Position numbers and translations under genes: made by a program. This document shows, piece by piece, positions 6,221-53,339 of a stretch of DNA of 64,000 nt; position 1 is the stretch's first letter; every line of letters begins with the position of its first letter. The notes beneath the pieces were generated by a model. It saw nothing but the letters and a program-made list of their open reading frames with translations. It was not told the DNA's origin and did not search any database. Source of the DNA: a virus (taxonomy: Duplodnaviria; Heunggongvirae; Uroviricota; Caudoviricetes); the IMG/VR virus record IMGVR_UViG_3300028992_000036; one strand, given 5' to 3'.

Positions 6221-7477
6221 CTATCGAGAACCACCAAGAATAACACGGTTTTTGACTGGATACCTACGATGTACTGGATAGCCCAATGCGTCTGCACTAT
6301 GCTCAATGCCACCTGTCTTATCCATATCTCGTGTTCCAGGCTTGTAGATGACTTTTTCCAGTGAATCAATCAAATGCTTGCACTTCGGATCGATATACAA
6401 CCGGATATCTCCAGATGCGGTCATCAGCATTCGGTTAACAGCATTAACACGATCCGCAATTGGCGGGTGCTTTTTCGAATAATCGACACGTAAGAATCCC
6501 TTCTCTTTGAATATGTCGACGTCAGACTCCCCGCGAGCATGTTGGCGATAAGCACCTGCCGGATCTGGAAATACCGTTATCTGTGATTTCCAGCGCCAGA
6601 AGCGTCTCTCAAGCTCATCACAAACCTCTGCCGTGTTAGAGGAAAAGAGCACCAATTCATCAATTGCCCATAGCTCACCATTTGGCTGAGGTTGCAAAAT
6701 TACTGAAGACATCGGGTCAATGTTGAAGTCCTGCCCTACCCATATAGGCAACCGAGGGTTGAACTGAAGCGGTTTTACATGCACGTTACGATCGAACGGG
6801 TAGTAAACGCGCCCGGACATGTTCTCAAAGCTCGCCAGGTACTCCTGAGCGAACGATTTCGGGTCCATATCGTTCTTAGCAGCTTCAATTTCCGCCGTAG
6901 GCACAAACGGAGAATCGGCAGTTACAAACTGCCAGCTCTTCCACTGTCCCTTTCTTTGCAGCTCTACGTTCTGGCCTATAGTCCACAGTTTGTGAAATTC
7001 CGAGAAACCTTTTGGCGTACCAATGATAAGTGCACCGCCGCGTGTCGATGAAAGAGTAGGTCGTAACACCTTGTACCAGGTGTCAGCCTTCATATCCTGA
7101 AATTCATCAAGCACTACAAAATGCAACGCTACGCCGCGCAGAGTGTCAGGCTTATCAGCACCTTTGAGGGCGATCTCCGAACCGTTCTTCAACACGATTG
7201 TCATCGTGGTGTCGTTCTTTTTCCTAACCCACTTACGAGGCAGAACTTCCTGTAGATCGTCCCACAAAATCTGGCGAGCCATCTGGTAAGTAGGAGCGAC
7301 ATACCAGACCCTTTGCTTTTTTTCCTTTGCCGCCGCACGAATAATAGTGGAGATCGACAACCGGGATTTTCCCCAGCGTCGACCAGCACAAACAACTTTA
7401 AATCGATGCGGAGACTGGAAGACTTTCATCTGTCCAGAATGCAGTTGCACAAGACTGAGCGAGGACGGGATTGCCAT
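6221..7477 (-). CDS. terminase large subunit
   Basis: Walker A VVCAGRRWGKS, Walker B LHFVVLDEFQD, C-terminal nuclease-like acidic motifs; start overlaps small-subunit stop. Confidence 0.8.
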   Translation of the reverse strand: MAIPSSLSLVQLHSGQMKVFQSPHRFKVVCAGRRWGKSRLSISTIIRAAAKEKKQRVWYVAPTYQMARQILWDDLQEVLPRKWVRKKNDTTMTIVLKNGSEIALKGADKPDTLRGVALHFVVLDEFQDMKADTWYKVLRPTLSSTRGGALIIGTPKGFSEFHKLWTIGQNVELQRKGQWKSWQFVTADSPFVPTAEIEAAKNDMDPKSFAQEYLASFENMSGRVYYPFDRNVHVKPLQFNPRLPIWVGQDFNIDPMSSVILQPQPNGELWAIDELVLFSSNTAEVCDELERRFWRWKSQITVFPDPAGAYRQHARGESDVDIFKEKGFLRVDYSKKHPPIADRVNAVNRMLMTASGDIRLYIDPKCKHLIDSLEKVIYKPGTRDMDKTGGIEHSADALGYPVHRRYPVKNRVILGGSR

Positions 7478-8109
7478 TATTCGTCCTCCCCTTCACTTCC
7501 ATCATCTGTCGCATCAAATTCGCTTAGAGCTTCTTCTTCCAACGTCTCAAGCAATTCGTCATCGATGATTTCAGGCTCGTCGTCTTCCTGACGTAATTTC
7601 GCCACCTGGGAAGGCGTAAGCTCACCAAATACCAGATTCGGAATTTCTTCCTCGTCATTTTCCGCATGATCCATGCCCAATGCTTTGGACGAAACTTCAA
7701 AGCATTTTGCAAGGGTATTACTGGCTCTCTGTAAGCTCTTGAGAGAATCCTCAATCGCCCCTAAAGGCTTACCCTCACGTTTGGCCGTAGTGACTTCGAC
7801 CATCACCATCTGCCCCAACGCATACGCCCAGCCGTCATAACGTGTACGACGTTCTTCTATCTTTTCCGCACGGGCTTTAGCGCGAAGCTCTGCGTCAGAT
7901 TTAAGAGACTCACGAACCATCTTCCCAACAGAGTCCGCGCCTTTCTCTAATCCTCGCTTTTTGAAATGTCTGGAGAGTGTTTCACGACGAATGCCGTACT
8001 CTTCCTCCAGCTTTGAGAGTGTATATTCGCCTGACGTCCATTTGGCTTCAGCTTCGGCCCACTCCGCTGGTGTCAGGCGAGTTTTTACCTCGTCTTTTTC
8101 GACCGTCAT
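7477..8109 (-). CDS. terminase small subunit (putative)
   Basis: 210 aa, N-terminal HTH-like region (RRETLSRHFKKRGL), very acidic C-terminus, immediately upstream of and coupled to terminase large subunit. Confidence 0.5.
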   Translation of the reverse strand: MTVEKDEVKTRLTPAEWAEAEAKWTSGEYTLSKLEEEYGIRRETLSRHFKKRGLEKGADSVGKMVRESLKSDAELRAKARAEKIEERRTRYDGWAYALGQMVMVEVTTAKREGKPLGAIEDSLKSLQRASNTLAKCFEVSSKALGMDHAENDEEEIPNLVFGELTPSQVAKLRQEDDEPEIIDDELLETLEEEALSEFDATDDGSEGEDE

Positions 8110-9472: not shown

Positions 9473-10134
9473 GAATGGACCTCATCGTGACTACCATTGT
9501 GATATTCCACCTTCACGCGTTCTTTGTAGTGCTTGGTGATCTGCATATCCGGGCGCAGCGCGTTCTTCAGGTCTTCGTGAGTCGTCGCCACCATTACCGT
9601 CGCACCAACCTTTCGAGCGGCACGCTGGAGGTTAGACGCCACAACCTGAGCGGTTACACGGTCGAGAACAGCGCCGAACTCGTCAGCAGCCCACACTTTA
9701 GCGCCTGACTCAATCAGTTTGGCAATCTTGAGACGATATTTCTGGCCGTCTGACATTTCAGAAGGCTTGCGAACAAACAGATATGCATCGTTCAGACCAG
9801 CCATAGATAACAACCCAAGCGCATCACTGGTCGTTTTGCCCAACTGATCGATGACGTTAACCTCATTATCGAAGGTAAAATCATCGATGGAGGCTACAGA
9901 CAGCCCTTCATCCTTCATCTGTCGTTGCAACTCGCGCAGCACAACGGATTTGCCGGAACCGGATTGGCCGGTGATGTACACCACATCGCCCTGCTTCACT
10001 TCCAGCTCCAGATTGTCGTAAAGCGTCCACTCTTTTTCGTCCAGGCCAAGCCCGAACGACTCAGCGATTTCCAACGTGCGCGTGGTTTTATTTACGCGTG
10101 TCTGAAACGATACGTTGATGATGTATTTGCTCAT
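9469..10134 (-). CDS. stand-alone ABC-type ATPase domain protein
   Basis: Walker A GQSGSGKS, signature-like SDGQKYRL, Walker B VWAADEF, H-loop VATTHE; 221 aa with no transmembrane partner nearby. Confidence 0.65.
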   Translation of the reverse strand: MSKYIINVSFQTRVNKTTRTLEIAESFGLGLDEKEWTLYDNLELEVKQGDVVYITGQSGSGKSVVLRELQRQMKDEGLSVASIDDFTFDNEVNVIDQLGKTTSDALGLLSMAGLNDAYLFVRKPSEMSDGQKYRLKIAKLIESGAKVWAADEFGAVLDRVTAQVVASNLQRAARKVGATVMVATTHEDLKNALRPDMQITKHYKERVKVEYHNGSHDEVHS

Positions 10135-10799
10135 GCAGCCATCTCCCCGGAAGAGATCTTCTCCGCATATGCCACAAATGCGTCTACCCCGCTTTCTCCC
10201 GTCATTTCTTCCATGTGGGCAAGCAAATCACCAACAACAATGGCAGAGCCAGCAGGGAGCGTTTTAAAGCCCAATACGTCGACAACACGTACTTCTTCCG
10301 CTGCAACTTCACGACTGATCTCGGTGTGTTCATCCTTCTGTCGTTTAGTTTCTTCGCCAAGATCGATAACTAGCGAGTCGGTGTCCATTTCTTCTGTCAT
10401 ACTGCCAACGAGAACATTCAACTCACGCTCTTCAAAGCCGAAAACCTCGATATCGTCCAGAACAAGCGACTCAAGCTCTTTCTGTAGCTTAATTGCATCG
10501 TAATCAATGCTGGCAAGTCGGTTATCTTCAAGGCGCTTCGCACGAACCTCGTCATCACTGAGATCATCGCGAACAATAACCGGTACGCGCTCAAGTCCAG
10601 CAAAAATTGCAGCCTCACGGCGGCCGTGGCCAGTAATAATTACGTCGTTCTTATCGACCGTAATTGGCTGGTCAAATCCGCGCTTTTTAATGGCTGCGGC
10701 TAGATCTCGGATCTGCTGTTCATCATGCTTTTTGGCATTCATCTCATAGGGAATAAGATCTGCCGGGTCGCGATATACGATTTCAAACTTTTTGGTCAT
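10131..10799 (-). CDS. ParB-like nuclease domain protein (paralog 1); start curated to MTKKFEIVY
   Basis: ParB/Srx-type N-terminal motif IITGHGRREAA; TAATG overlap with upstream paralog. Confidence 0.65.
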   Translation of the reverse strand: MTKKFEIVYRDPADLIPYEMNAKKHDEQQIRDLAAAIKKRGFDQPITVDKNDVIITGHGRREAAIFAGLERVPVIVRDDLSDDEVRAKRLEDNRLASIDYDAIKLQKELESLVLDDIEVFGFEERELNVLVGSMTEEMDTDSLVIDLGEETKRQKDEHTEISREVAAEEVRVVDVLGFKTLPAGSAIVVGDLLAHMEEMTGESGVDAFVAYAEKISSGEMAA

Positions 10800-11497
10800 T
10801 ACATACGCTCCTTGTAGTAGTCGACCAGCCACACCAGAGCCTCACCAGCGTTCTCCATTTCATTACCGGTGTTAATAGCCTGCTCTTTGATGATGTTTTT
10901 TATGGTTTCTGCAACACGATCTGACGCATCGAAAGTTACTTTGAAGCGCATGGTCTGATGTTCCGCACCCACACGTTCGGTTTTCTCTCGTTTGTCGGTA
11001 TCGACAGGCTCATCACTACCACGAGACAACGCCTCCAGTGCTTCAAGGTCGATTGCCGCCTCTTTTGCTAAAACCATCGAGATTTCGTCGTCATACGGGG
11101 CGATTTCAGACAGTTGATAGTCAAGTTCTGACTGAATTTCTTCAATGAAGCGTTGCAATGCGATTTGGTCGTCTTCACCGTATCGCTCGTTGTCCACCAG
11201 TGACATCTGTTTAGCTACGACATCGCTAATTTTGCCCACAGAAAGCACCGGAACCGTTGAAATTCCTTGCTCAATAGCAGCACGCCAGCGATGTTCGCCG
11301 CCGAGGATTTCAAAAAATCCATCTTCAAGTTCACGAGCCAAAATTGGCTTAAAAAAGCCCAATTTTTCGATAGAACCTTTCAGTTTTTCAAAATTCTGCG
11401 CACCAACCGAATTGGTGTTCCAGGTATTCGGGCGAAGGTTGGCAACATCAACCTGCAAAATCGTGATTTTTACATCCATTTTATTGCTACAATCCAC
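10799..11497 (-). CDS. ParB-like nuclease domain protein (paralog 2)
   Basis: ParB box-like ILGGEHRWRAA; 232 aa; no ParA-type partner in window. Confidence 0.65.
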   Translation of the reverse strand: MDCSNKMDVKITILQVDVANLRPNTWNTNSVGAQNFEKLKGSIEKLGFFKPILARELEDGFFEILGGEHRWRAAIEQGISTVPVLSVGKISDVVAKQMSLVDNERYGEDDQIALQRFIEEIQSELDYQLSEIAPYDDEISMVLAKEAAIDLEALEALSRGSDEPVDTDKREKTERVGAEHQTMRFKVTFDASDRVAETIKNIIKEQAINTGNEMENAGEALVWLVDYYKERM

Positions 11498-13428: not shown

Positions 13429-13893
13429 ATGAAGTCTCCCATACTGTTCACTTTCTGTTCTAAAACTATCATGAAATACTCGCTTCTCCCTCTACTAACG
13501 TTACCAGTGTTGATGCTTACCGCGTGCCAATCACGCCCAATATCAATCCATGACGCCAAACCAGCACCGCAGGCCAAAGTGTTCAAGTATCAAAGCGCAG
13601 CGCCAGCTACGTTGGTGGTAATGAGAGACACAGGTTTTGTAGGAGCTGGATGTGATGCTTCCATTTTCATCAACGGCGAAACTGTCGCAAAACTGGCTAC
13701 AGGCGAAAAAGCGACTTTCCATTTAAATGCCGGAGAATTAATTGTGGGTGCATCTCTTGAAGGTGCAGGTTTATGTGCTCTAAACCCCGCTCGTCAAGAG
13801 CGAGAAACGACTCTGAAGAATGGAGACACAAAAGCGTTCAGGGTGTTCACCAGCAATTCTGGTGACATCGACATTCTGCCAACAACTCTGTGA
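13429..13893 (+). CDS. putative lipoprotein
   Basis: Signal peptide ending in lipobox LTAC; AGGGAGACAAAG Shine-Dalgarno (alternative start at 13471). Confidence 0.5.
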   Translation: MKSPILFTFCSKTIMKYSLLPLLTLPVLMLTACQSRPISIHDAKPAPQAKVFKYQSAAPATLVVMRDTGFVGAGCDASIFINGETVAKLATGEKATFHLNAGELIVGASLEGAGLCALNPARQERETTLKNGDTKAFRVFTSNSGDIDILPTTL

Positions 13894-13897
13894 TGAC

Positions 13898-14422
13898 ATG
13901 ACAACCAAAGATATTACCTACGGTATCCAAGCTGAACTCTGGCCGCGAGATTACACTAACGTTGAAAAACTACTGATGTTCTGGCGCAGAGAACAAATTC
14001 CTGTAAGGGTCACTCTCGAAGATGGCCAGGCGTTTTGCATGTACGTTTATGGCCTCATGCCATCTCGTAACAAAGTTGACCTTTGCCCAGCCCCTTTTGA
14101 CAAAGAAAATCGTATAAGGCTCCCACTTGAACGCATTAGTACAATTGAATCAGGTGTGGTTGACAGTATCGCTCACGATTTCAAAGGTCGACTAACAGTT
14201 CACCCTGATTATGTCGATAATCGGCCATCACGCCGCGATTTTTTTGCAATTTGCAACCAAGCCTACAAAGCAAACAAATCTATAAGGGTGTACATGGCGG
14301 ATGGCCGTGAAATTGAGGGGGTGTCAGCAGGCGCAGATGCTTGTCAGGTTACACTACGTGTCGAGAACGGTAGAAAAATAGTTGTTTTGTTCGATTGGGT
14401 TGAACGAATTTTGCCTTTTTGA
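13898..14422 (+). CDS. hypothetical protein (start curated to MTTKDITY)
   Basis: ATG 4 nt after the lipoprotein stop; ORF-track start at 13820 overlaps the upstream gene. Confidence 0.45.
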   Translation: MTTKDITYGIQAELWPRDYTNVEKLLMFWRREQIPVRVTLEDGQAFCMYVYGLMPSRNKVDLCPAPFDKENRIRLPLERISTIESGVVDSIAHDFKGRLTVHPDYVDNRPSRRDFFAICNQAYKANKSIRVYMADGREIEGVSAGADACQVTLRVENGRKIVVLFDWVERILPF

Positions 14423-16178: not shown

Positions 16179-16205
16179 GAGCGCCCACTATGGGCGCTTT
16201 TTTTC
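16179..16205 (+). terminator. rho-independent terminator GCGCCCACTATGGGCGC + TTTTTTT
   Basis: Perfect stem followed by 7 T; second similar hairpin GCGCCAtcaTTGGCGC + T-run near 16228-16252. Confidence 0.55.
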
Positions 16206-16659
16206 GTTTCCAATACACCTACCATAACGCGCCATCATTGGCGCGTTTTTATTGTCTTTAACTCACTCCAACAACATAAAAATAAGCGCCAAAATAACGC
16301 CATAGACGCGCTTTTATATCCTTACCAGTACATGCCCATTACTTAACACATTAACGCGCTTAAAACGCATTATATTGCGCTATAGAGTATGGTTAATCAT
16401 TGGCTTTTAGTCTTGCTATGTGATCCGCGTTTATTTGTCGGTGCGGATCGGCATTTTGTTTTGTTCTGTATCCGCTCGCGTATTATGTGCGCGTGATTTT
16501 TCACATAATCACACCACTTAATCACGTATGTGATTATGCTACGAAAGAAATCTGGATGTCTCAGGCGACGAAAGTCATCATAATTTCCCCCGCTCACCTG
16601 TCCGACAACCGCTGGTTGGATTCCACCAGCTTCCCGATGTTTTTTCTACACAAAGGCGA

Positions 16660-16785
16660 ATGCAGCCGTTTCCCGAAAAAATCCTGGCCGTTCCCCGTCG
16701 GCTCATGAATACGTTCCTCGCCGTTTCTGAAAATTTCCCTGCGGCAGCTGGTGGCTATAGAGAAAGGGCCGTTTCTGGCCCTCTT
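16660..16785. repeat. iteron-like array, about 5 copies of GCCGTTTCCC(TGAAAA) at about 22-bp spacing
   Basis: Repeats at about 16666, 16688, 16712, 16721, 16769; same motif family as the array at 19790-19950. Confidence 0.5.
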
Positions 16786-16790
16786 CTCAG

Positions 16791-17273
16791 TTACACGCCA
16801 TCAAGGATGTGGATGCGGTTGCTTGCGTATACATTCAGCATAAAGTTAGCGCAAAACAGTTTCCATGTATCAACGCCAGCGGTATACGTAATGTTTTTGC
16901 ATTTAATTGCATTGTTGGCGATCCGCATCCCCTGCGATACTGCTTCATCGTCGGAAAATTTGAACGACGATTGAGTTTTAATCCAGACAGAAATCTGCGT
17001 AGCGAACTCAATCAGCTTGGACTGGCAGAATCGCCCGGAGCGCACCGGAAAGACGAACGTTCCGAATCCAGAATTTACCACATATGCTTTCTCAAATACC
17101 CGCGAGTAACGACGATTGCCAATGATGTCGCGTGCAATAATGCATTTTTCTTGTGCTGACAGTTCTACCGTCTCATTGTCGCGCCATGCACCAAGTACTC
17201 GTTTTTCAATGTCAGAGAACGTTACAGCGATATTGCCATGTGCGGGTGCGTTTACAGTAGCGATAAAATTCAT
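16791..17273 (-). CDS. hypothetical protein
   Basis: 160-aa ORF; TAAGGAATTAATC Shine-Dalgarno; upstream AACAAATTGTTTTCT palindrome. Confidence 0.5.
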   Translation of the reverse strand: MNFIATVNAPAHGNIAVTFSDIEKRVLGAWRDNETVELSAQEKCIIARDIIGNRRYSRVFEKAYVVNSGFGTFVFPVRSGRFCQSKLIEFATQISVWIKTQSSFKFSDDEAVSQGMRIANNAIKCKNITYTAGVDTWKLFCANFMLNVYASNRIHILDGV

Positions 17274-17623
17274 GATTAATTCCTTATCGTAAATAACAAA
17301 TTGTTTTCTTGTTGGTGTTAATTATCGTTGTACGAATAAGGCGTCAAAGTGGAAAGTTGCGGTAGCCGGACGGGAACAGGTGGGTTTGTCGGTTGCCTGG
17401 AGGTAAGAGGTTGGTGTTATTAGCCTGAGGGAAACAGGATGGTCATTTAAGACCACCAATGCTGGTGGCCTTAATAATTATCGCCCGATTACGCTAAGGA
17501 TCTTTTCCTCAACTGATTTGTTGTTGCGACTAAACTGCCTTGCGTATCTGATGACAGAAGAGGCGTTTTGCTTTCTGACCATCTCGGCTCTTTCCTTCAG
17601 GCGTTTCTTGAAATCGCCCATAT

Positions 17624-18637: not shown

Positions 18638-18949
18638 TCAGGCTATTGCCATCACTGATGCTCTCTGAATTTCTTGCTGGGCCACGCGGTTAACTTCCAT
18701 CAAAGCCAGTTCGAGCTGATGTTCCGGCCACATTCTTTGAAATGCCATCCAGCCTTTTCCACGCTGGCGACGAACATTCATTACATAACGAGTAAAGGTG
18801 TTTTTATCGAAAGACACCGCTGTTTCACGGAACAGACGAATAGAGGTTCCATTGGCAACGATGTCCAGCAAAGTTAATTGAGCAACCAGCGCAGGCTTCT
18901 CTTTTCTCTTCTGGTCTTTGTCCAGACCAAGAACCAATGATTTTTTCAT
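18638..18949 (-). CDS. hypothetical protein (start curated to MKKSLVLG)
   Basis: Internal ATG with ACGGAG Shine-Dalgarno; the ORF-track start is TTG inside the palindromic motif. Confidence 0.45.
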   Translation of the reverse strand: MKKSLVLGLDKDQKRKEKPALVAQLTLLDIVANGTSIRLFRETAVSFDKNTFTRYVMNVRRQRGKGWMAFQRMWPEHQLELALMEVNRVAQQEIQRASVMAIA

Positions 18950-19103
18950 CACAACTCCGTAAACAACTTGTTTTCTCAATGGCGTAAATAATACCAGTAA
19001 GAAAACGGCTACAAAGCATATTGATCAGGTGTATGAGCGATATGCAGGTTCTTCCCTGCGGCTACAGATGAAGTTAAGCCAGCATTGCTGGCTTTGGTTG
19101 GGT

Positions 19104-19433
19104 TTACTCGAATACTTCAAGAAACTCCTGAACGTCCCAATGCTGGACGAGGTGAAGATAGACCTTAGAAATCACGTCATTTTCGCTATCGCATGTGAAG
19201 TAGTACTTCTGGCTGCGGTTGTATGTGTCCACACAAAATTCGCTCATATCCATAAAGTCAGCATCTTCACCCATGTCGCAAATCATCAAAGCAGGTGCAT
19301 CATCACGAGTCATCAGCTCCAGCACCCATCTTGAATTAATCAGAGTGGAAGACCAACCTTCCAGCTCATAGAACTGGTCAAACTCTTTTTGAGTTAATTT
19401 CTTGATTTGGTTGATGTCGATATTTGCAAACAT
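19104..19433 (-). CDS. hypothetical acidic protein (start curated to MFANIDIN)
   Basis: Internal ATG preceded by TTTAAGGATTG; the first ATG lies inside the upstream palindrome. Confidence 0.45.
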   Translation of the reverse strand: MFANIDINQIKKLTQKEFDQFYELEGWSSTLINSRWVLELMTRDDAPALMICDMGEDADFMDMSEFCVDTYNRSQKYYFTCDSENDVISKVYLHLVQHWDVQEFLEVFE

Positions 19434-19789
19434 AAAGCAATCCTTAAACAACATGTTTTCTTGATGGTGTTATTATCGCAATAACGCACAGGCGAAAAAG
19501 GATTTTATTCCGGTGAATATGGTTTTGGCAGTGAGTTTTCAGGTTCAGTACCGAGTATACTTTTTACATTATTCTGATTTAGTGGCCGAAGGTGGCTGGT
19601 GGGCAGAATAATCCTCTCCCCGAAAACCTACTGAAATCGATTGTGACCCGTTGGCTGTCTGGCACAATTACGCTGTAGCTGGGCATTCAGAGGGAATCCA
19701 GCGGTAAGCAAGTCCGCCTACGTGAGCGCCTCTCTTCTTCCCGCACATTACAGGTGGGTAGCCGCAACTCTCCCTCTCGCTATACCGGT

Positions 19790-19950
19790 ACGCCGCCGTT
19801 CCTGAACCGGCATCGAGCCTTTTCCCGAAATCCACACAGGCAACTCGACCGTTTCCCTGAAAACCTCCAGCCGTTCCCCGAAGGCAACCCAGCCGTTTCT
19901 GTAGCGGGATGCAACCTTTTCCCTGTATGGACCGAAGGCTGACCGTAGGG
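19790..19950. repeat. iteron-like array, 6-7 copies of (A/G)GCCGTTTCCCTGAA at about 22-bp spacing
   Basis: Copies at about 19795, 19818, 19848, 19870, 19892, 19915, 19941; overlapping ORFs have non-protein-like composition. Confidence 0.5.
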
Positions 19951-20995
19951 GTGTTACGGGGGATAAAATCAGGAGTTGAATAAATACGAAAAAGGAGGCG
20001 ACACCCCTCCTTCCCTCCCCACTTATACATACCTGGCTTCTTCGCTATACATGTTGTGTTTTATCTGTCTCAACCTCTCTATAGGCGTTAATGCTCACTC
20101 CTTCCAGAATGTTCTATACGGCAACTATTTCTGTTGGTGAATTGGGTGTGTTGTTCTCTCTGTCGGTGTATGTGGTTTCGTTCGTTTTGCGGTGGTTCTT
20201 CTATGGGGTGTTCTCGTCGTTTTGGTGATTGTTCTTCTCCGTGTATGGAGTAATGGCAGGTGGGCGATTCCTTTCGTTGTTGTGTTTGAGTTGTTTGTCT
20301 GGAGTGTGTGAAAGGCTTTTGCAGTTATTCGTGTATTGGGTAATGGCATTTCCCGTGATTGTTGTGTTTCGTGTCTTTTGGGATTGAGAGAAACCTTGCG
20401 GTTACAGGCTTCGTTGGGGTTTCAGTGATTCTGGTGTTCTTCGCTGTTTGGGGAATGGCGTGTCGTGGGTATCGCGCGTATGAATGTTTTCGGATTGCCT
20501 GTGAAAGTTAGGTTGGTTGTCCGGTAGCCTGGGGAGAAGAGGTGGGTCTTTTCGGTAGCCTGCCATAAAGAGGTTGGTTGTTTTTGGAAATGGCATTTGT
20601 GTTATTTAGTTGTTTTGTTATGCCTGAAAATAAGTTGTTTATATGGTTGTGTAACGCAACGGGAGCGATTTTGAGCGTGTGTTTTTGTTGGTAGTATGTT
20701 GGGTCGTCTGTGGTGAAAATTGGACGCTGTGGCGCTGTCTGCTGCGTAGAGTTACGGGTATAAGCAGTGATGTGTGAAAACGTCAATTTTTTAGACCAAA
20801 TCGGGTGAAAGCGTTGATGTTTCGTTGATCTGTTATTCAGTTGTTTTCTTGATTGTATAAACAACTATAACTTATTGATATTTAAGGATGTGATTGCGGG
20901 TATGGAAGAAGAGTAGTGGCGATCAACGGATTCTTATAGAAAAGAATCAAATTGTGACCGCCATTATCAACTGATTGATTTGTTTACTTGTGTAG

Positions 20996-23426: not shown

Positions 23427-25460
23427 TTACTTAACCTGGTGGCCAGGTTTAGCACCAGCATCCGGGCTTAACAGGAAGATATCTTTCCCGCCGGGGCCAG
23501 CAGCCATCACCATGCCTTCAGAGATACCGAAGCGCATTTTACGTGGTGCCAGGTTAGCCACCATAATGGTGTGACGACCAATCAGTGCCTGTGGATCTGG
23601 ATAAGCGGAACGGATGCCTGAGAAGACATTACGCTTTTCACCACCGAGATCCAGCGTCAGGCGAAGCAGTTTGTCAGAACCTTCTACAAACTCTGCGTTT
23701 TCAATCAGCGCCACGCGCAGGTCAACTTTGGCGAAGTCGTCAAAGGTGATAGTTTCCTGAATCGGGTCGTCAGCCAGTGGGCCAGTTACCGGTGCGGCTG
23801 TGGCTTTCACTTCTTCTTTGGATGCTTCCACCAGTGCTTCAACCTGCTTCATATCGATGCGGTTATACAGTGCCTTGAACGGATTCACTTTATGGCCCAG
23901 CAGCGGTTGCTGGATACCATCCCAGGTCAGTTCTGTATTCAGGAATGCTTCTGCACGTTCAGTCAGTTTCGGCAGTACCGGTTTCAGGTACGTCATCAGC
24001 ACGCGGAACAGGTTAATGCCCATAGAGCAAATCGCCTGCAGATCGGCATCGCGTCCTTCCTGCTTTGCCACCACCCACGGAGCCTGTTCATCAACATAGC
24101 GGTTAGCCAGGTCAGCCAGTGCCATGATTTCACGGATAGCTTTGCCAAATTCGCGGCTTTCCCATGCTTCGCCAATCACTTCAGCGGCATCAGTAAAGGT
24201 TTTGTACAGTTGCGGGTCAGCCAGTTCGCTTGCCAGCACGCCGTCAAAACGCTTGTTGATAAAGCCTGCATTACGGGAGGCCAGGTTAACCACTTTGTTA
24301 ACGATATCGGCATTCACACGCTGAACGAAATCTTCCAGGTTGAGATCGATATCATCAATGCGCGAAGAGAGTTTCGCAGTGTAGTAGTAACGCAGGCTGT
24401 CGGCGTCAAAATGATTCAGCCAGGTGCTGGCTTTAATAAAGGTGCCGCGAGACTTGGACATCTTCGCGCCGTTCACCGTCACATAGCCGTGAACAAACAG
24501 GTTGGTCGGCTTGCGGAAGTTGCTGCCTTCCAGCATGGCAGGCCAGAACAGGCTGTGGAAGTAAACGATATCTTTGCCGATGAAGTGGTACAGCTCGGCG
24601 GTGGAGTCTTTCTTCCAGTATTCGTCGAAGCTGGTAGTGTCGCCGCGTTTGTCGCACAGATTCTTGAAGGAACCCATGTAGCCAATCGGCGCGTCCAGCC
24701 AGACGTAGAAGTATTTGCCCGGTGCGTTCGGAATTTCAAAACCGAAGTAAGGTGCGTCACGGGAGATATCCCACTGTTGCAGGCCAGATTCAAACCACTC
24801 CTGCATTTTGTTTGCCACCTGCTCCTGCAACGCACCGCTGCGGGTCCATGCCTGCAACATTTCGCTGAAAGAAGGCAGATCAAAGAAGAAGTGTTCGGAA
24901 TCACGCATTACCGGTGTAGCGCCAGAAACCACTGATTTCGGCTCGATCAGTTCCGTCGGGCTGTATGTCGCGCCGCAGACTTCACAGTTATCGCCGTATT
25001 GATCCGGCGCTTTACATTTCGGGCATGTGCCTTTTACAAAACGGTCCGGCAGGAACATGCCTTTTTCCGGGTCGTACAGCTGAGAGATGGTGCGGTTTTT
25101 AATAAAACCGTTCTCTTTCAGGCGAGTATAGATAAGCTCGGACAACTGACGGTTCTCTTCGCTGTGCGTCGAGTGATAGTTGTCATAGCTGATGTTAAAG
25201 CCTGCGAAATCAGTCTGATGTTCCTGACTCATTTCGCCAATCATCTGTTCCGGTGTGATACCAAGCTGCTGTGCTTTCAGCATGATTGGCGTACCGTGGG
25301 CATCGTCGGCACAGATGAAATTAACCTCGTGGCCGCGCATTCGCTGGTAACGAACCCAGACATCAGCCTGGATGTGCTCCAGCATATGGCCGAGGTGGAT
25401 TGAGCCGTTAGCGTACGGCAGCGCGCACGTCACCAGAATTTTCTTCGCGACTTGGGTCAT
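23427..25460 (-). CDS. metG: methionine--tRNA ligase (start curated to [10 protein letters not shown]; ORF-track N-terminal extension rejected)
   Basis: 677 aa; essentially collinear with E. coli MetG as recalled (class I HLGH motif, KMSKS, C-terminal tRNA-binding domain); hairpin terminator at about 23385-23410. Confidence 0.95.
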
Positions 25461-25617
25461 AGTAGGCATTACTTCTTTGTAGTGAAAAGGGGCTTGATAG
25501 TAACAAAATGGCCTTATGTCTGCCATGTGATAACAGCATTTCTCATAAATGATTAAATGTCGTAGCTGGAGTACACTACAAGGCGACAATTGCGCAAATT
25601 AAAATAAAGGAGACGGG

Positions 25618-49605: not shown

Positions 49606-49628
49606 GACTGGTCTGAAGTCATGTTCAT

Positions 49629-49730
49629 GTATGCTGTCAGCGGTAATTGATAGTCTGTCAGCGGTTCACCGTATGCTGCCAACTGTTTTTGGTATTCTGT
49701 CAGCGGCAAATCAAGTATGCTGTCAGCGGT
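49629..49730 (+). repeat. origin iterons: 5 copies of (G)TATGCTGTCAGCGGT at 22-bp spacing
   Basis: Direct repeats at about 49629, 49651, 49671 (degenerate), 49693, 49715, ending 20 bp before the repA ATG. Confidence 0.75.
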
Positions 49731-49750
49731 TGAATGACAAAGGTGTCCAC

Positions 49751-50845
49751 ATGTCCACAAAAAATAAAAAAGGTAAAAATAACAAAGAAGTAGAAGATAA
49801 CATCGACAACTTTGAAGAAGGTTCCCTTGAATTGTACACAGGGGAACTTGTCCCTAATAGCAACAATACAGTCCAACCAATTGCGTTGATGCGACTGGGG
49901 TTGTTCGTCCCCACGCTTAAGGGAACAAAATACAGTAAACGTAACAAGCCAAATGAGATCGATGCTTCAAAGGAGCTTGTCCAGCTCGAAGTAGCCCGTT
50001 CTGAAGGCTATTCCGATATCAAGATAACCGGTCCTCGTCTCGACATGGATCATGATTTCAAAACGTGGGTGGGCGTTGTGCGTTCGCTGGCAGAATACGG
50101 CGAACCTAACGGTCGTGTCGAGTTAAGCATCACGAAATTTGCGAAGTTTTGTGGCTATCCATCGTCACAGATCCGCAAAACACTCCGCGACCGGCTTACA
50201 AACAGTCTTTTGAAGATCATGCGTACAACTCTGTCTTTCCAGAGAACGTATGAAGAAAAGAACGTCGACGGCTCTAACAAGATCTCGCTTCTGATGGTGC
50301 ACCTCATCAATAGCGTGGACTACAACGAGCAGAAAGATACGGTGGTGTTCTATGCAGAACCGAAGCTGGCCGAACTATATCGCTTTGACCATAAGGTTCT
50401 TTTGCAGTTAAAGGTTATCAATAAGCTACCACGCAAAGAAACAGCACAGGCTCTGTACACCTTCATCGAAAGTCTTCCAACCAAGCCTGCGCCGGTATCG
50501 CTTGCTCGATTGCGTGCGCGACTCAATTTGAGTAGCAGGAATGTCAGCTCGCAGAATCAGACTATACGTAACGGCTTAAAAGCTCTCCAAGATTTGGGCT
50601 ATCTCGAATACAGCGAGATTAAGCGTGGGCGGTCGATCTATATCCAGATTCACAGCCGCAATCCAAAACTCAAAGTCGCACCGCCAAAACCTGAAGACAT
50701 CGAACCCAAAAAACCAGATGAGAAAGCCGGGGAAATTGATGCCAAACAGAACATTATCAATAAGATAACCGAACTTTCGCAGAATTTGACGCCTGAAAAT
50801 ATCAAGATGATTGAGATCCTTTCCAATAGTCTCAAACTGCTTTGA
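49751..50845 (+). CDS. repA: plasmid replication initiator RepA-like (iteron-binding); start curated to MSTKNKKGK
   Basis: 364-aa basic protein flanked on both sides by arrays of the same 16-bp iteron; architecture of P1/F-type theta replicons. Confidence 0.7.
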   Translation: MSTKNKKGKNNKEVEDNIDNFEEGSLELYTGELVPNSNNTVQPIALMRLGLFVPTLKGTKYSKRNKPNEIDASKELVQLEVARSEGYSDIKITGPRLDMDHDFKTWVGVVRSLAEYGEPNGRVELSITKFAKFCGYPSSQIRKTLRDRLTNSLLKIMRTTLSFQRTYEEKNVDGSNKISLLMVHLINSVDYNEQKDTVVFYAEPKLAELYRFDHKVLLQLKVINKLPRKETAQALYTFIESLPTKPAPVSLARLRARLNLSSRNVSSQNQTIRNGLKALQDLGYLEYSEIKRGRSIYIQIHSRNPKLKVAPPKPEDIEPKKPDEKAGEIDAKQNIINKITELSQNLTPENIKMIEILSNSLKLL

Positions 50846-51377
50846 TATGCTGTCAGCGGTGAAATGTATGCTATCAGCGGCTATTTTTCTGAAAAGTATG
50901 CTGTGAACGGTTAAAGATATGCTACCAGCGGTATAGTGAGATGAACGTATGCTGTGAGCGGTAAATCATCTATCACCACTCAATGCTCTGCCATACCTCC
51001 CCAGTGGTTACTAACCTCGAAGAGTGCATTCCATATAGGTTTGCGCTCACTAACATTCTATTGCTATTGCGCTGATTGCTTGTAGTGAAAGGCATTTGTT
51101 GCCTGCTACTCCCTGATAGAATGTATGCTGTCAGCGGTGTTTTATTGAGGAATTTTTGTTTGGATATGCTATCAGCGGTAATTAATGGTATATGTCAGAC
51201 CTTCGTATGCTGCCAGCGGTAATTTTGTTCTGGTTATACCCATACCGGGACACATTATTCATGCAATGTCTTAAGTATGCTGTCAGCGGTAAAAAATCGA
51301 GTAAAGTATGCTGTGAGCGGTGAGATAGACTCTCGATATGCTATCAGCGGTAGTTGATTGTGTATGCTGTCAGCGGT
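50846..51377 (+). repeat. downstream iteron arrays (incA-like copy-control region): about 12 copies of GTATGCTGTCAGCGGT in two clusters
   Basis: Copies at about 50846, 50866, 50896, 50917, 50947 and 51123, 51164, 51204, 51274, 51305, 51335, 51362. Confidence 0.75.
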
Positions 51378-51424
51378 GACGACTATGAAATATGACTGCG
51401 GAACGTGCCGCAGTCAGTTTGCAT

Positions 51425-52619: not shown

Positions 52620-53339
<720 letters not shown>

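What the first reader, a model, noticed from the sequence alone, without database searches (positions are those of the whole stretch)
19790..19950. Iteron-like array B (6-7 copies of (A/G)GCCGTTTCCCTGAA) paired with array A
Copies at about 19795, 19818, 19848, 19870, 19892, 19915 and 19941, with 22-23 bp period. The ORF predicted across it (19668-20030, Gly/Arg/Cys-rich) is almost certainly spurious. It shares its motif with array A, and the two flank the small-gene cluster, suggesting paired cis-acting sites for partition, replication or looping-based regulation.
Basis: seen in the sequence. Interest (0 to 1): 0.5.

Follow-up and report, generated by a model that had tools for sequence, protein, structure and literature searches.

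The report
Conserved protein-binding repeat array, phage-plasmid
Six evenly spaced copies of a short DNA word sit in a long gene-free stretch of an SSU5-type phage-plasmid; they are conserved across many gut bacteria, look like docking sites for an unknown DNA-binding protein, and most likely mark a second replication origin or control site, though that role is untested.

Summary
Array B has six same-strand copies, not seven, of a core CC(G/T)TT(C/T)C(C/T). They start at 19796, 19818, 19849, 19871, 19893 and 19915, spaced 22/31/22/22/22 bp. Array A (16666, 16688, 16721) carries the same word. These are the only two such clusters in the ~112 kb element.

The window is an SSU5-type phage-plasmid, 96% identical to Escherichia phage Cyrano. 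Both arrays, with their unit order and spacing, recur in Salmonella, Klebsiella, Enterobacter, Citrobacter, Cronobacter, Kluyvera and Buttiauxella relatives. Cores are better conserved than spacers, and copy number changes by whole units. The word is unchanged in relatives whose flanking protein is only 31% identical.

There is no RNA covariation, no Rfam hit and no credible ORF. RefSeq annotates nothing across a 1.5 kb gap here. The plasmid's RepA has its own, different iterons 30 kb away, and no A/B word lies before parA.

I read array B as a DNA-level, iteron-type protein-binding array. Its most likely role, by analogy, is a second phage-mode origin or replication-control site: 11 of 12 arrays of this geometry in unrelated phages lie in or beside initiator genes. 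The binding protein and the function remain unproven.

The parts
19793..19927 (+). Array B. Six direct units: B1 19793-19807 CCGCCGTTCCTGAAC; B2 19815-19830 GAGCCTTTTCCCGAAA; B3 19846-19861 CGACCGTTTCCCTGAA; B4 19868-19883 CAGCCGTTCCCCGAAG; B5 19890-19905 CAGCCGTTTCTGTAGC; B6 19912-19927 CAACCTTTTCCCTGTA. Best consensus: CAGCC(G/T)TTTCCCTGAAAA.
   Evidence: statistics. (conserved order and spacing in relatives); mean pairwise identity is 0.72 for core columns against 0.54 for spacer columns, Mann-Whitney p = 6.5e-6.
19941..19953 (+). It is not a unit. It belongs to a separately conserved block, TGG.CCGAAGGCTGACCG.AGGGG...GTTACGGGGGAT (about 19927-19963).
   Evidence: It falls below the matrix threshold. 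The block is conserved in 12 relatives.
19780..19788 (+). Conserved left flank CTATACCGG. Related CT(A/C)TATAC words recur at 20020-20028 and at about 20113-20121.
   Evidence: Alignment of 12 relatives. Also present in the remote relatives L106 and L107.
19989..20015 (-). Hairpin read on the - strand (AAGGAGG / CCTCCTT stem) followed by TTTTTCGTATTTATTCAA. It is terminator-like and lies just upstream, in - strand sense, of array B.
   Evidence: Terminator scan. RNAalifold on the - strand shows G-U pairs and one pair with 5 compensatory changes. The 3' tail TTGAATAAATACG is near-invariant even in remote relatives.
20030..20950 (.). About 900 nt without a credible gene. It is GT-rich on the + strand and CA-rich, G-poor on the - strand. 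It contains highly conserved blocks (20105-20280) and GTAATGGC repeats. Together with array B it forms a 1.5 kb CDS-free region (19455-20995).
   Evidence: Composition. The same skew appears in 7 other lineages. CDS-free gaps of 1.4-2.0 kb occur in every annotated relative. No RNA covariation.
16662..16733 (+). Array A. Three units of the same word: A1 16662-16678 GCAGCCGTTTCCCGAAA; A2 16684-16700 CTGGCCGTTCCCCGTCG; A3 16717-16733 CTCGCCGTTTCTGAAAA.
   Evidence: Also retained in a Yersinia pestis pMT1-like contig that lacks array B.
16766..16781 (-). Hairpin GGGCC-AGAAAC-GGCCC followed by TTTCTCT, directly after the stop codon of the 160-aa gene. It holds a fourth copy of the core and is probably that gene's terminator.
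   Evidence: One search shows a compensatory change: GGGCC/GGCCC in the window against GGGGC/GCCCC in relatives.
16791..17273 (-). 160-aa protein (phrog_1641), always adjacent to array A. Candidate binder on weak grounds.
18638..18949 (-). 103-aa protein (phrog_5125). Apart from the 160-aa gene it is the most widely retained gene between the arrays, and it is one of the two left in the shortest versions of the module. Candidate binder on weak grounds.
19668..20030 (-). ORF of 120 aa across the array (Gly/Arg/Cys-rich). Judged spurious.

Best explanation
Array B is a DNA-level array of binding sites for one sequence-specific protein. It is not a gene and not a structured RNA.

SHOWN:
- Six same-orientation units with core GCC(G/T)TTTCCC lie on roughly one face of the helix (22 or 31 bp apart).
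- They sit in a 1.5 kb gene-free stretch, directly after a - strand terminator-like hairpin.
- A smaller array with the same word (A) sits 3.1 kb away, after the terminator-like hairpin of the last gene of the phage's long leftward gene run.
- A and B are the only such clusters in the element. They bracket a module of 2-7 small genes.
- The word, the order of units and the pairing are kept across SSU5-type phage-plasmids of at least nine genera.

INFERRED:
- A protein encoded by the element oligomerises on the repeats. Candidates by synteny are the 160-aa and 103-aa proteins between the arrays, or the conserved 216-aa and FljA-family proteins beside array A.
- This would form an iteron-type nucleoprotein complex, and A and B could pair by looping.

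MOST LIKELY ROLE, by analogy only: a second, phage-mode (lytic) replication origin or its control site, separate from the RepA/iteron replicon used in the plasmid state. This would be comparable to P4 ori plus crr or SPP1 oriL plus oriR (both from memory).

The confidence of 0.35 is for the origin or replication-control role. That array B is a selected, non-coding, DNA-level protein-binding array I hold at about 0.8.
For: Real and non-random.

Conserved with the same spacing in 12 aligned relatives, and in most of the 86 viral contigs found by pattern.

Core more conserved than spacer.

Copy number changes by whole units (a 22-bp loss in PhiR41, a 53-bp loss in Buttiauxella, 2 strong units in L109).

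Spacings stay close to whole helical turns (22, 31-34 bp; Klebsiella turns the 31 into 22).

Same word in relatives whose 160-aa protein is 31% identical.

No conserved RNA structure on either strand. No Rfam family.

No gene.

Distinct from the RepA iterons.

For the origin reading:
- The same pattern (3 units at exactly 22 bp) retrieved tandem arrays in unrelated phages. Eleven of the 12 examined lie inside or within about 150 bp of a gene for a replication initiator or primosomal protein.
- The element encodes its own helicase, primase, Pol III alpha, SSB and UvsW/X/Y-type proteins, but no recognised phage-type initiator.
- Both arrays lie in DNA shielded from transcription by terminator-like hairpins.
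Against: No initiator gene is recognisable in or beside the arrays. The 160-aa and 103-aa families show no profile similarity to the O-like initiators of the comparison phages.

I found no conserved DnaA boxes or clear AT-rich unwinding element. This was only inspected by eye, not tested formally.

Some relatives keep only 1-2 strong units per array (L107, L109). That is few for an origin and fits a regulator's site better.

The putative recognition helix of the 160-aa protein is not conserved in remote homologues, although the DNA word is.

A Yersinia pestis plasmid keeps array A without array B.

The comparison with other phages is biased by the search pattern and is analogy, not homology.
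Confidence: 0.35

Rival explanations
1. The arrays are regulatory or architectural sites. A small DNA-bending regulator binds both arrays and loops or insulates the 3 kb small-gene module, switching it on or off or blocking read-through from the roughly 75 kb of upstream co-directional transcription. P2 Cox and 186 Apl bind phased direct repeats at two separate loci in this way (from memory).
For: The arrays bracket a module whose gene content varies from 2 to 7 genes while the arrays stay in place.

Both arrays follow a terminator-like hairpin.

Copy number can fall to 1-2 without loss of the element.

The proteins encoded between the arrays have folds weakly resembling DNA-binding domains.
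Against: Each small gene already carries a different, genome-wide operator, AAACAAnTTGTTT, within a shared promoter module. The A/B word is therefore not the obvious operator for these genes.

Array B is 265 bp or more from the next promoter-like site, and the distance varies between lineages.
Confidence: 0.25
2. The arrays are a remote partition centromere. They would be bound by the centromere-binding partner of the small ParA (Cyrano CYRAN_28/29) or by one of the two ParB_N-domain proteins, as with the dispersed centromere sites of phage-plasmid N15 (from memory).
For: Arrays of phased direct repeats are typical of type Ib and type II centromeres (established knowledge).

I saw no convincing repeat array next to the parA operon in Cyrano.

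A 51.6 kb deletion derivative keeps both arrays together with the ParA-like operon.

The arrays are shielded from transcription.
Against: The arrays are about 65 kb from parA in Cyrano. No A/B-type array precedes parA. That region carries other repeats (AGGCTATA) and the global palindrome instead.

The Yersinia pestis contig keeps array A intact. pMT1 is said to use a P1-type parABS system (from memory, not checked here).
Confidence: 0.12
3. The word acts at RNA level. It would be a repeated linear motif in a transcript, read by an RNA-binding protein such as the nearby FljA-family protein, or it would serve as C-rich Rho-loading sites for + strand antisense transcripts.
For: A FljA-family protein is encoded 2.2 kb from array A and stays syntenic even in remote relatives. 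FljA of Salmonella is reported to bind fliC mRNA (from memory).

The + strand of array B is C-rich and G-poor, with GC skew of -0.3 to -0.4.
Against: No promoter-like site was found that would transcribe the array on either strand. On the - strand the array lies just after a terminator-like hairpin.

The spacing keeps to helical turns, which matters for DNA and not for RNA.

A specific 10-nt word is conserved, rather than mere C-richness.

No covariation.
Confidence: 0.08
4. The arrays are a packaging recognition site: small-terminase binding sites like the R sites of lambda cosB, whose core as I recall it (CGTTTCC) resembles this word.
For: Only the recalled resemblance to the lambda R sites, and the fact that terminase small subunits bind arrays of direct repeats (established knowledge).
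Against: terS (7477-8109) is 9-12 kb away and matches no Pfam family, including Nu1. terL is of the T4 headful type.

Array A is kept in a non-phage Yersinia plasmid.

Deletion derivatives without most structural genes keep both arrays.
Confidence: 0.05
5. The region is protein-coding (ORF 19668-20030, annotated as CYRAN_104 in Cyrano), or it is selectively neutral repeat DNA.
For: An ORF is open there, and two phage records annotate a hypothetical protein.
Against: Several frames are open at once, because the sequence is GC-rich.

Indels between near relatives break the frame.

No family. RefSeq calls nothing there.

Against neutrality: the word and the order of units are conserved across genera.
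Confidence: 0.03

Closest known systems
Iterons of theta-replicating plasmids with flanking control arrays (P1 oriR-repA-incA, RepFIB)
   Same: Direct repeats about two helical turns apart, in two same-orientation arrays that bracket genes. Copy number changes by whole units. The same element carries a textbook example at 49.6-51.4 kb.
   Different: No Rep-family gene lies between or beside arrays A and B. The word (GCCGTTTCCC) differs from the RepA iteron (TATGCTGTCAGCGG). There are 2-7 small genes of unknown function between the arrays, not one rep gene. No DnaA boxes or AT-rich region were identified.
Phage origins built from iterons (lambda-type ori inside the O gene; P4 ori plus crr; SPP1 oriL plus oriR; T4 oriE with repEA/repEB)
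   Same: Geometry: arrays retrieved from unrelated phages with the same 22-bp pattern lie in or next to initiator genes in 11 of 12 cases. Two separated clusters of one word occur in P4 and SPP1 (from memory). The element has a T4-like set of replication and recombination genes.
   Different: The arrays lie in non-coding DNA, not inside an initiator gene. There is no O-like, DnaD-like or alpha-like protein nearby. Function is untested.
Plasmid centromeres made of repeat arrays (F sopC, R1 parC, pB171 parC1/parC2, pSM19035 parS; dispersed sites of N15)
   Same: Phased direct repeats in more than one array, in transcription-free DNA, on a low-copy element that needs partition.
   Different: Not adjacent to parA, and no A/B-type array precedes parA. 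The periods of known type Ib and type II centromere repeats are mostly shorter.
Arrays of phased direct repeats bound by small DNA-bending regulators (P2 Cox, 186 Apl)
   Same: One small protein, two separated arrays of same-orientation repeats. Small proteins with possible DNA-binding folds are encoded beside the sites.
   Different: As I recall, Cox and Apl sites repeat about every helical turn and sit at a promoter switch and at attP. Here the period is two turns, and no promoter switch or attachment site is evident.

Membership tests
Rep-type plasmid iterons (P1/RepFIB kind) | Tandem direct repeats of 17-22 bp at about 22-bp spacing | tested here: met
   Spacing is 22/31/22/22/22, and the cluster is far beyond chance.
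Rep-type plasmid iterons (P1/RepFIB kind) | The repeats are the binding word of an adjacent Rep initiator gene | tested here: not met
   repA lies at 49631-50845 and is flanked by its own repeats, TATGCTGTCAGCGG. No Rep family was found among the genes at 13.8-21.4 kb.
Rep-type plasmid iterons (P1/RepFIB kind) | Adjacent AT-rich unwinding region and DnaA boxes | tested here: inconclusive
   Only a short AT-rich conserved stretch (19966-19990) is present. No conserved DnaA box was seen in the 12-way alignment. No formal scan was run.
Phage O-type origin | Iterons lie inside or next to the gene of an O-like or DnaD-like initiator | tested here: not met
   The array lies in a 1.5 kb CDS-free gap. 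The neighbouring proteins belong to PHROG families of unknown function. hhalign probability against O-like proteins is below 1%.
P4-type ori/crr pair | Two separated clusters of the same repeat, needed in cis | tested here: inconclusive
   There are two clusters, and only two, in the ~112 kb element. The requirement in cis is not testable with these tools.
Partition centromere | The repeat array is linked to, and read by, the partner protein of a ParA/ParM-type NTPase, usually beside the operon | tested here: not met
   parA is about 65 kb away in Cyrano. Its upstream region lacks the word. Binding itself is not testable here.
Structured non-coding RNA | Conserved secondary structure with compensatory changes, or an Rfam match | tested here: not met
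   The covariation term is about 0 on both strands for the array and for the CA-rich part. There are no Rfam hits. Only the flanking hairpin 19989-20015 has support.
Repeat-RNA loci (CRISPR arrays, type III antitoxin repeats) | Near-identical repeats of fixed length with a defined transcript | tested here: not met
   The units share only a core of about 10 nt. The spacers are degenerate, and Tandem Repeats Finder does not score the array.
Protein-coding gene | One conserved reading frame with homologues | tested here: not met
   Frame-breaking indels between relatives.
lambda-type cosB (Nu1 R sites) | Sites next to cosN and terS, read by a Nu1-family small terminase | tested here: not met
   terS matches no Pfam family, terL is of the T4 type, and the arrays are 9-12 kb from terS. 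The resemblance of the word to the R sites is recalled from memory and was not tested.

The most novel reading that the evidence does not exclude
The 1.5 kb gene-free region, the two arrays and the small genes between them together form a replication origin and initiator system of a new kind, used by SSU5-type phage-plasmids in the lytic mode. Its initiator would be unrelated to known Rep, O or DnaD families: the 160-aa or 103-aa protein, or the conserved 216-aa neighbour. The strongly strand-asymmetric 900-nt stretch would play a mechanical part, for example in strand opening, priming or R-loop formation.
Probability: 0.2. Interest if true: 0.65.

Novelty: new variant of a known kind. Interest (0 to 1): 0.45.

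Why it matters
SSU5-type phage-plasmids are common. This exact region is on plasmids in 220 of 5,426 complete E. coli genomes and in 718 PLSDB plasmids, mainly Klebsiella, Escherichia, Enterobacter and Salmonella. According to the abstracts listed, phage-plasmids, SSU5-type ones among them, carry antibiotic resistance genes.

I found no description of how they switch from plasmid to phage replication. The papers I could search mention no origin other than repA.

A conserved, unannotated pair of binding-site arrays in a 1.5 kb gene-free region is a concrete, testable candidate for that missing cis element. Alternatively it could be a new regulatory or partition site. Either way it would give a handle for curing, tracking or engineering these elements. 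If it proves to be an ordinary regulator's site, the gain is modest.

Tried and rejected
- **Strict 15-mer consensus search**: not significant on its own. Replaced by a core pattern and an independent weight matrix.
- **Tandem Repeats Finder**: misses the array.
- **Rfam**: no hit at E <= 5 over 16-21.5 kb except a chance miRNA match.
- **RNAalifold on both strands** of the array, and on the - strand of the CA-rich region: no covariation, apart from the flanking hairpin.
- **RepA iterons**: a different word.
- **GC-skew switch**: uninformative, because skew follows gene orientation.
- **Chi polarity as an origin marker**: 24 sites in my approximate ~112 kb reconstruction, with no clean replichore pattern and confounding by coding strand. 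The window-to-plasmid mapping was imperfect at the window's right end.
- **Profile comparison** of both families with O-like initiators: negative.
- **PDB sequence searches** for the 216-aa and FljA-like proteins: nothing.
- **Sigma-54, sigma-32 and sigma-E promoter readings, DnaA boxes and LacI-family half-sites**: considered by eye and dropped, because spacing or conservation did not fit.
- **Literature searches** on SSU5, pHCM2 and pMT1 origins and on FljA targets: nothing usable. One preprint could not be opened.
- **ORF 23892-24935(+)**: has no Pfam family and lies wholly within the 23427-25589(-) reading frame that I take to be metG. It is therefore probably an antisense ORF and not the MinD-like gene.

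Full report
**What the window is**

The region 19400-20400 is 96.5% identical to Escherichia phage Cyrano (OV696614). It also matches other SSU5-type phage-plasmids and is 100% identical over 19455-20507 to an E. coli plasmid, CP057685.

The Cyrano annotation gives the context:
- Nearly all genes run in one direction, which is the - strand of the window. They go from terminase through structural, lysis, replication and nucleotide-metabolism genes.
- The run ends with a set of small unknown genes at 19454-16791.
- Array A lies just past the last of these, in a convergent intergenic region. Array B lies just before the first.

**Checking the observation**

The sequence shows six units on the + strand. 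The core CCKTTYCY hits 19796, 19818, 19849, 19871, 19893 and 19915, and also 16666, 16688, 16721 and 16769. That is 10 of the 20 matches in 64 kb.

A weight matrix built from the SSU5 phage units, not from the window, scores the window's B units at 10.6-17.9 bits and its A units at 15.3-19.6 bits. Simulated sequences never give more than 2 hits within 150 bp, against 6 observed.

The seventh copy proposed at about 19941 is not a unit.

Arrays A and B share two consecutive units plus a spacer at 76% identity. No other cluster of the word exists in Cyrano or in the remainder of CP057685 (with an imperfect join at one end).

**Conservation**

The 1,053-bp intergenic query matches 718 PLSDB plasmids. 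These are mainly Klebsiella, Escherichia, Enterobacter, Salmonella, Citrobacter and Cronobacter. Most matches are at 60-80% identity, and almost none has an annotated feature under the match.

In nine fetched relatives and in species-representative genomes both arrays are present:
- Array B keeps the same order and the same 22/31/22/22/22 spacing in SSU5, Enterobacter, Cronobacter, Citrobacter, Kluyvera and a metagenome bin.
- Klebsiella and Salmonella AnCo3 have a 9-bp shorter second interval (22 instead of 31).
- PhiR41 has lost exactly one 22-bp unit, and Buttiauxella exactly 53 bp (two units).
- A Salmonella lineage (L109) keeps two strong units followed by decayed ones.

Across 12 aligned relatives the nine core columns of each unit have mean pairwise identity 0.72, against 0.54 for the spacers.

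A pattern scan of IMG/VR returned 86 contigs. Most carry this same array, and one further clade has four near-perfect units.

Two remote relatives were found through an exhaustive profile search with the 160-aa protein, which is 31% identical to theirs. They keep the whole layout: FljA-like gene, 216-aa gene, array A, 160-aa gene, small genes, array B, and about 1.5 kb without genes. They also keep the same word, GGGAAACGGC, in 1-5 copies.

A Yersinia pestis pMT1-like contig keeps array A and its neighbours but not array B.

**Not a gene, not a structured RNA**

- The 120-aa ORF across the array has no family.
- All three - strand frames are open across the array at once.
- Indels of 22, 53 and 9 bp separate near relatives.
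- RefSeq annotates nothing between the small genes and the next gene, a gap of 1,564 bp in a plasmid whose array region (19760-20040) is 99.6% identical. Comparable gaps of 1.4-2.0 kb exist in all relatives.
- Rfam finds nothing.
- RNAalifold finds no covarying structure in the array on either strand.
- Only the hairpin at 19989-20015 has support. Read on the - strand it has G-U pairs and one pair with five compensatory changes, and it matches the terminator pattern.

**The surroundings**

Right of the hairpin lies about 900 nt with GC skew up to +0.57 and AT skew down to -0.63 on the + strand. The - strand there is CA-rich and G-poor. The same skew is found in seven other lineages, although the sequence beyond about 20280 drifts.

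Blocks 19925-20030 and 20105-20280 are 80-100% identical across lineages without RNA covariation.

Array A likewise follows a hairpin, 16766-16781, which shows a compensatory change between lineages. It is fenced on the other side by three + strand terminator-like hairpins.

Both arrays therefore sit in DNA that appears shielded from transcription.

**What the arrays are not**

- **RepA iterons.** The plasmid replicon is at 49.6-51.4 kb. repA is flanked by two arrays of TATGCTGTCAGCGG at 21-bp spacing, the classical P1/RepFIB layout. The word is different.
- **parA-linked sites.** The small ParA operon of Cyrano lies about 65 kb away, and its upstream region lacks an A/B-type array.
- **The small genes' operator.** Those genes each carry a different element, the palindrome AAACAAnTTGTTT within a shared 55-nt promoter module. 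It occurs 14 times in the window against 0.5 expected. It also precedes terS and, in Cyrano, parA. That looks like the operator of a global regulator, so the A/B word is a separate system.
- **A lambda-type cos site.** terS has no Nu1 similarity, terL is of the T4 headful type, and both lie 9-12 kb away.

**What reads the word**

This is unknown. The candidates, all by position, are:
- The **216-aa and FljA-family proteins** on the other side of array A. They are more conserved, at 73-86% and 64-82% identity respectively, and have no structural relatives by sequence.

Because the word does not change over large divergence, a host factor cannot be excluded.

**Most likely function**

The features point to a protein reading double-stranded DNA co-operatively. 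These are a conserved core, degenerate spacers, spacing in whole helical turns, change by whole units, one orientation, and two arrays.

For the role I rely on an empirical analogy. The same three-unit, 22-bp pattern pulled genuine tandem arrays from unrelated phages. In 11 of the 12 that I examined, the array lies inside or within about 150 bp of a gene for an O-like, Rep-like or primosomal/DnaD-like replication initiator.

The SSU5-type element encodes a full phage replisome and T4-like recombination proteins but no recognised phage initiator. It needs some origin for the lytic mode.

I therefore favour a second, phage-mode origin or replication-control site, with confidence 0.35. Against this:
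- No initiator is detectable nearby.
- No DnaA boxes or clear unwinding element were seen.
- Some lineages have only 1-2 strong units.

A regulatory or architectural role (0.25) and a remote centromere (0.12) remain serious rivals. RNA-level, packaging, coding and neutral readings are unlikely.

**Novelty and interest**

I found no description of this element. It is unannotated in every RefSeq (PGAP) annotation I inspected; only two phage records place a hypothetical-protein CDS over it. It is not mentioned in the phage-plasmid papers I could search.

In kind it is familiar, an iteron-like binding-site array. Three things set it apart:
- It is split into two arrays bracketing a module of unknown small genes.
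- It is detached from any known initiator or partition gene.
- It is embedded in a long, strongly strand-asymmetric gene-free region.

It is frequent in clinical Enterobacteriaceae, occurring in 4% of complete E. coli genomes. The proposed experiments are simple. I score it as moderately interesting.

Noticed in passing
window 49609-51400: This is the plasmid-mode replicon. repA (49631/49790-50845, + strand) is flanked by two arrays of TATGCTGTCAGCGG iterons: about 5 copies at 21-bp spacing upstream and about 11 downstream. This is the P1/RepFIB-type layout.
   Followed up: partly
window 8150, 8175, 17294, 18058, 18961, 19446, 20628, 23279, 23330, 26953, 29861, 30575, 31304, 41523; also L018 (Cyrano) ~29255: The palindrome AAACAAnTTGTTT occurs 14 times against 0.5 expected. 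It lies in front of terS, of each small gene between the arrays, and of parA in Cyrano. It looks like the dispersed operator of a global regulator, in the manner of P1 C1 operators.
   Followed up: partly
window 17295-17349, 18962-19016, 19447-19501: A roughly 55-nt module is repeated upstream of three small - strand genes. It contains the palindrome, a GATAAT-like -10 element and the ribosome-binding region. It is probably a shared promoter and 5' UTR.
   Followed up: no
window 16623(-), 16747(+), 17461(+), 19595(+) and 9 more: Chi (GCTGGTGG) occurs 13 times in the window against 1.4 expected, and about 24 times in my approximate reconstruction of the whole element. Four non-coding Chi sites cluster around the arrays, with opposite polarity on the two sides of array A. 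Several are conserved in relatives.
   Followed up: partly
window 20030-20950: About 900 nt without a credible gene. It is CA-rich and G-poor on the - strand, and this composition is kept in every lineage. It contains repeated GTAATGGC words (about 20240-20350) and blocks that are 80-100% identical across genera. The region to its right is a variable cargo zone in relatives (restriction-modification, nucleases, metG).
   Followed up: partly
window 13820-14422 (+): A protein of the FljA family (PF03614, E = 2.5e-84), named after the repressor of phase-1 flagellin. It has a weak Hfq-like match at its C-terminus. It is conserved and syntenic in all relatives, including the Yersinia pestis plasmid.
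   Followed up: no
window 16285-16604: There are promoter-like sites on the - strand, inverted ATAATCACA repeats and - strand terminator-like hairpins just beyond array A. This may be a small RNA or a 66-aa ORF. Three + strand terminator-like hairpins lie at 16179-16493.
   Followed up: no
window 10131-10832 (-) and 10799-11497 (-): Two adjacent ParB_N-domain proteins lie between the UvsW-type helicase gene and an ATPase/terS block.
   Followed up: no
window 23427-25589 (-): The element carries a full-length methionyl-tRNA synthetase gene (metG). The ORF 23892-24935 on the opposite strand has no family and lies wholly within the metG reading frame, so it looks like an antisense artefact.
   Followed up: no
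window 53112-53148: A run of N (37 bases) in the window sequence.
   Followed up: no
L062, L090, L026, L080, L081, L048, L029, L096, L071, L093, L087 (IMG/VR contigs): Unrelated phages carry near-perfect 22-bp tandem repeats with a CCGTTTCC-like core, inside or beside replication-initiator genes. They are likely origin iterons. L062 and L090 share CCGTTTCCATTCGG.
   Followed up: partly
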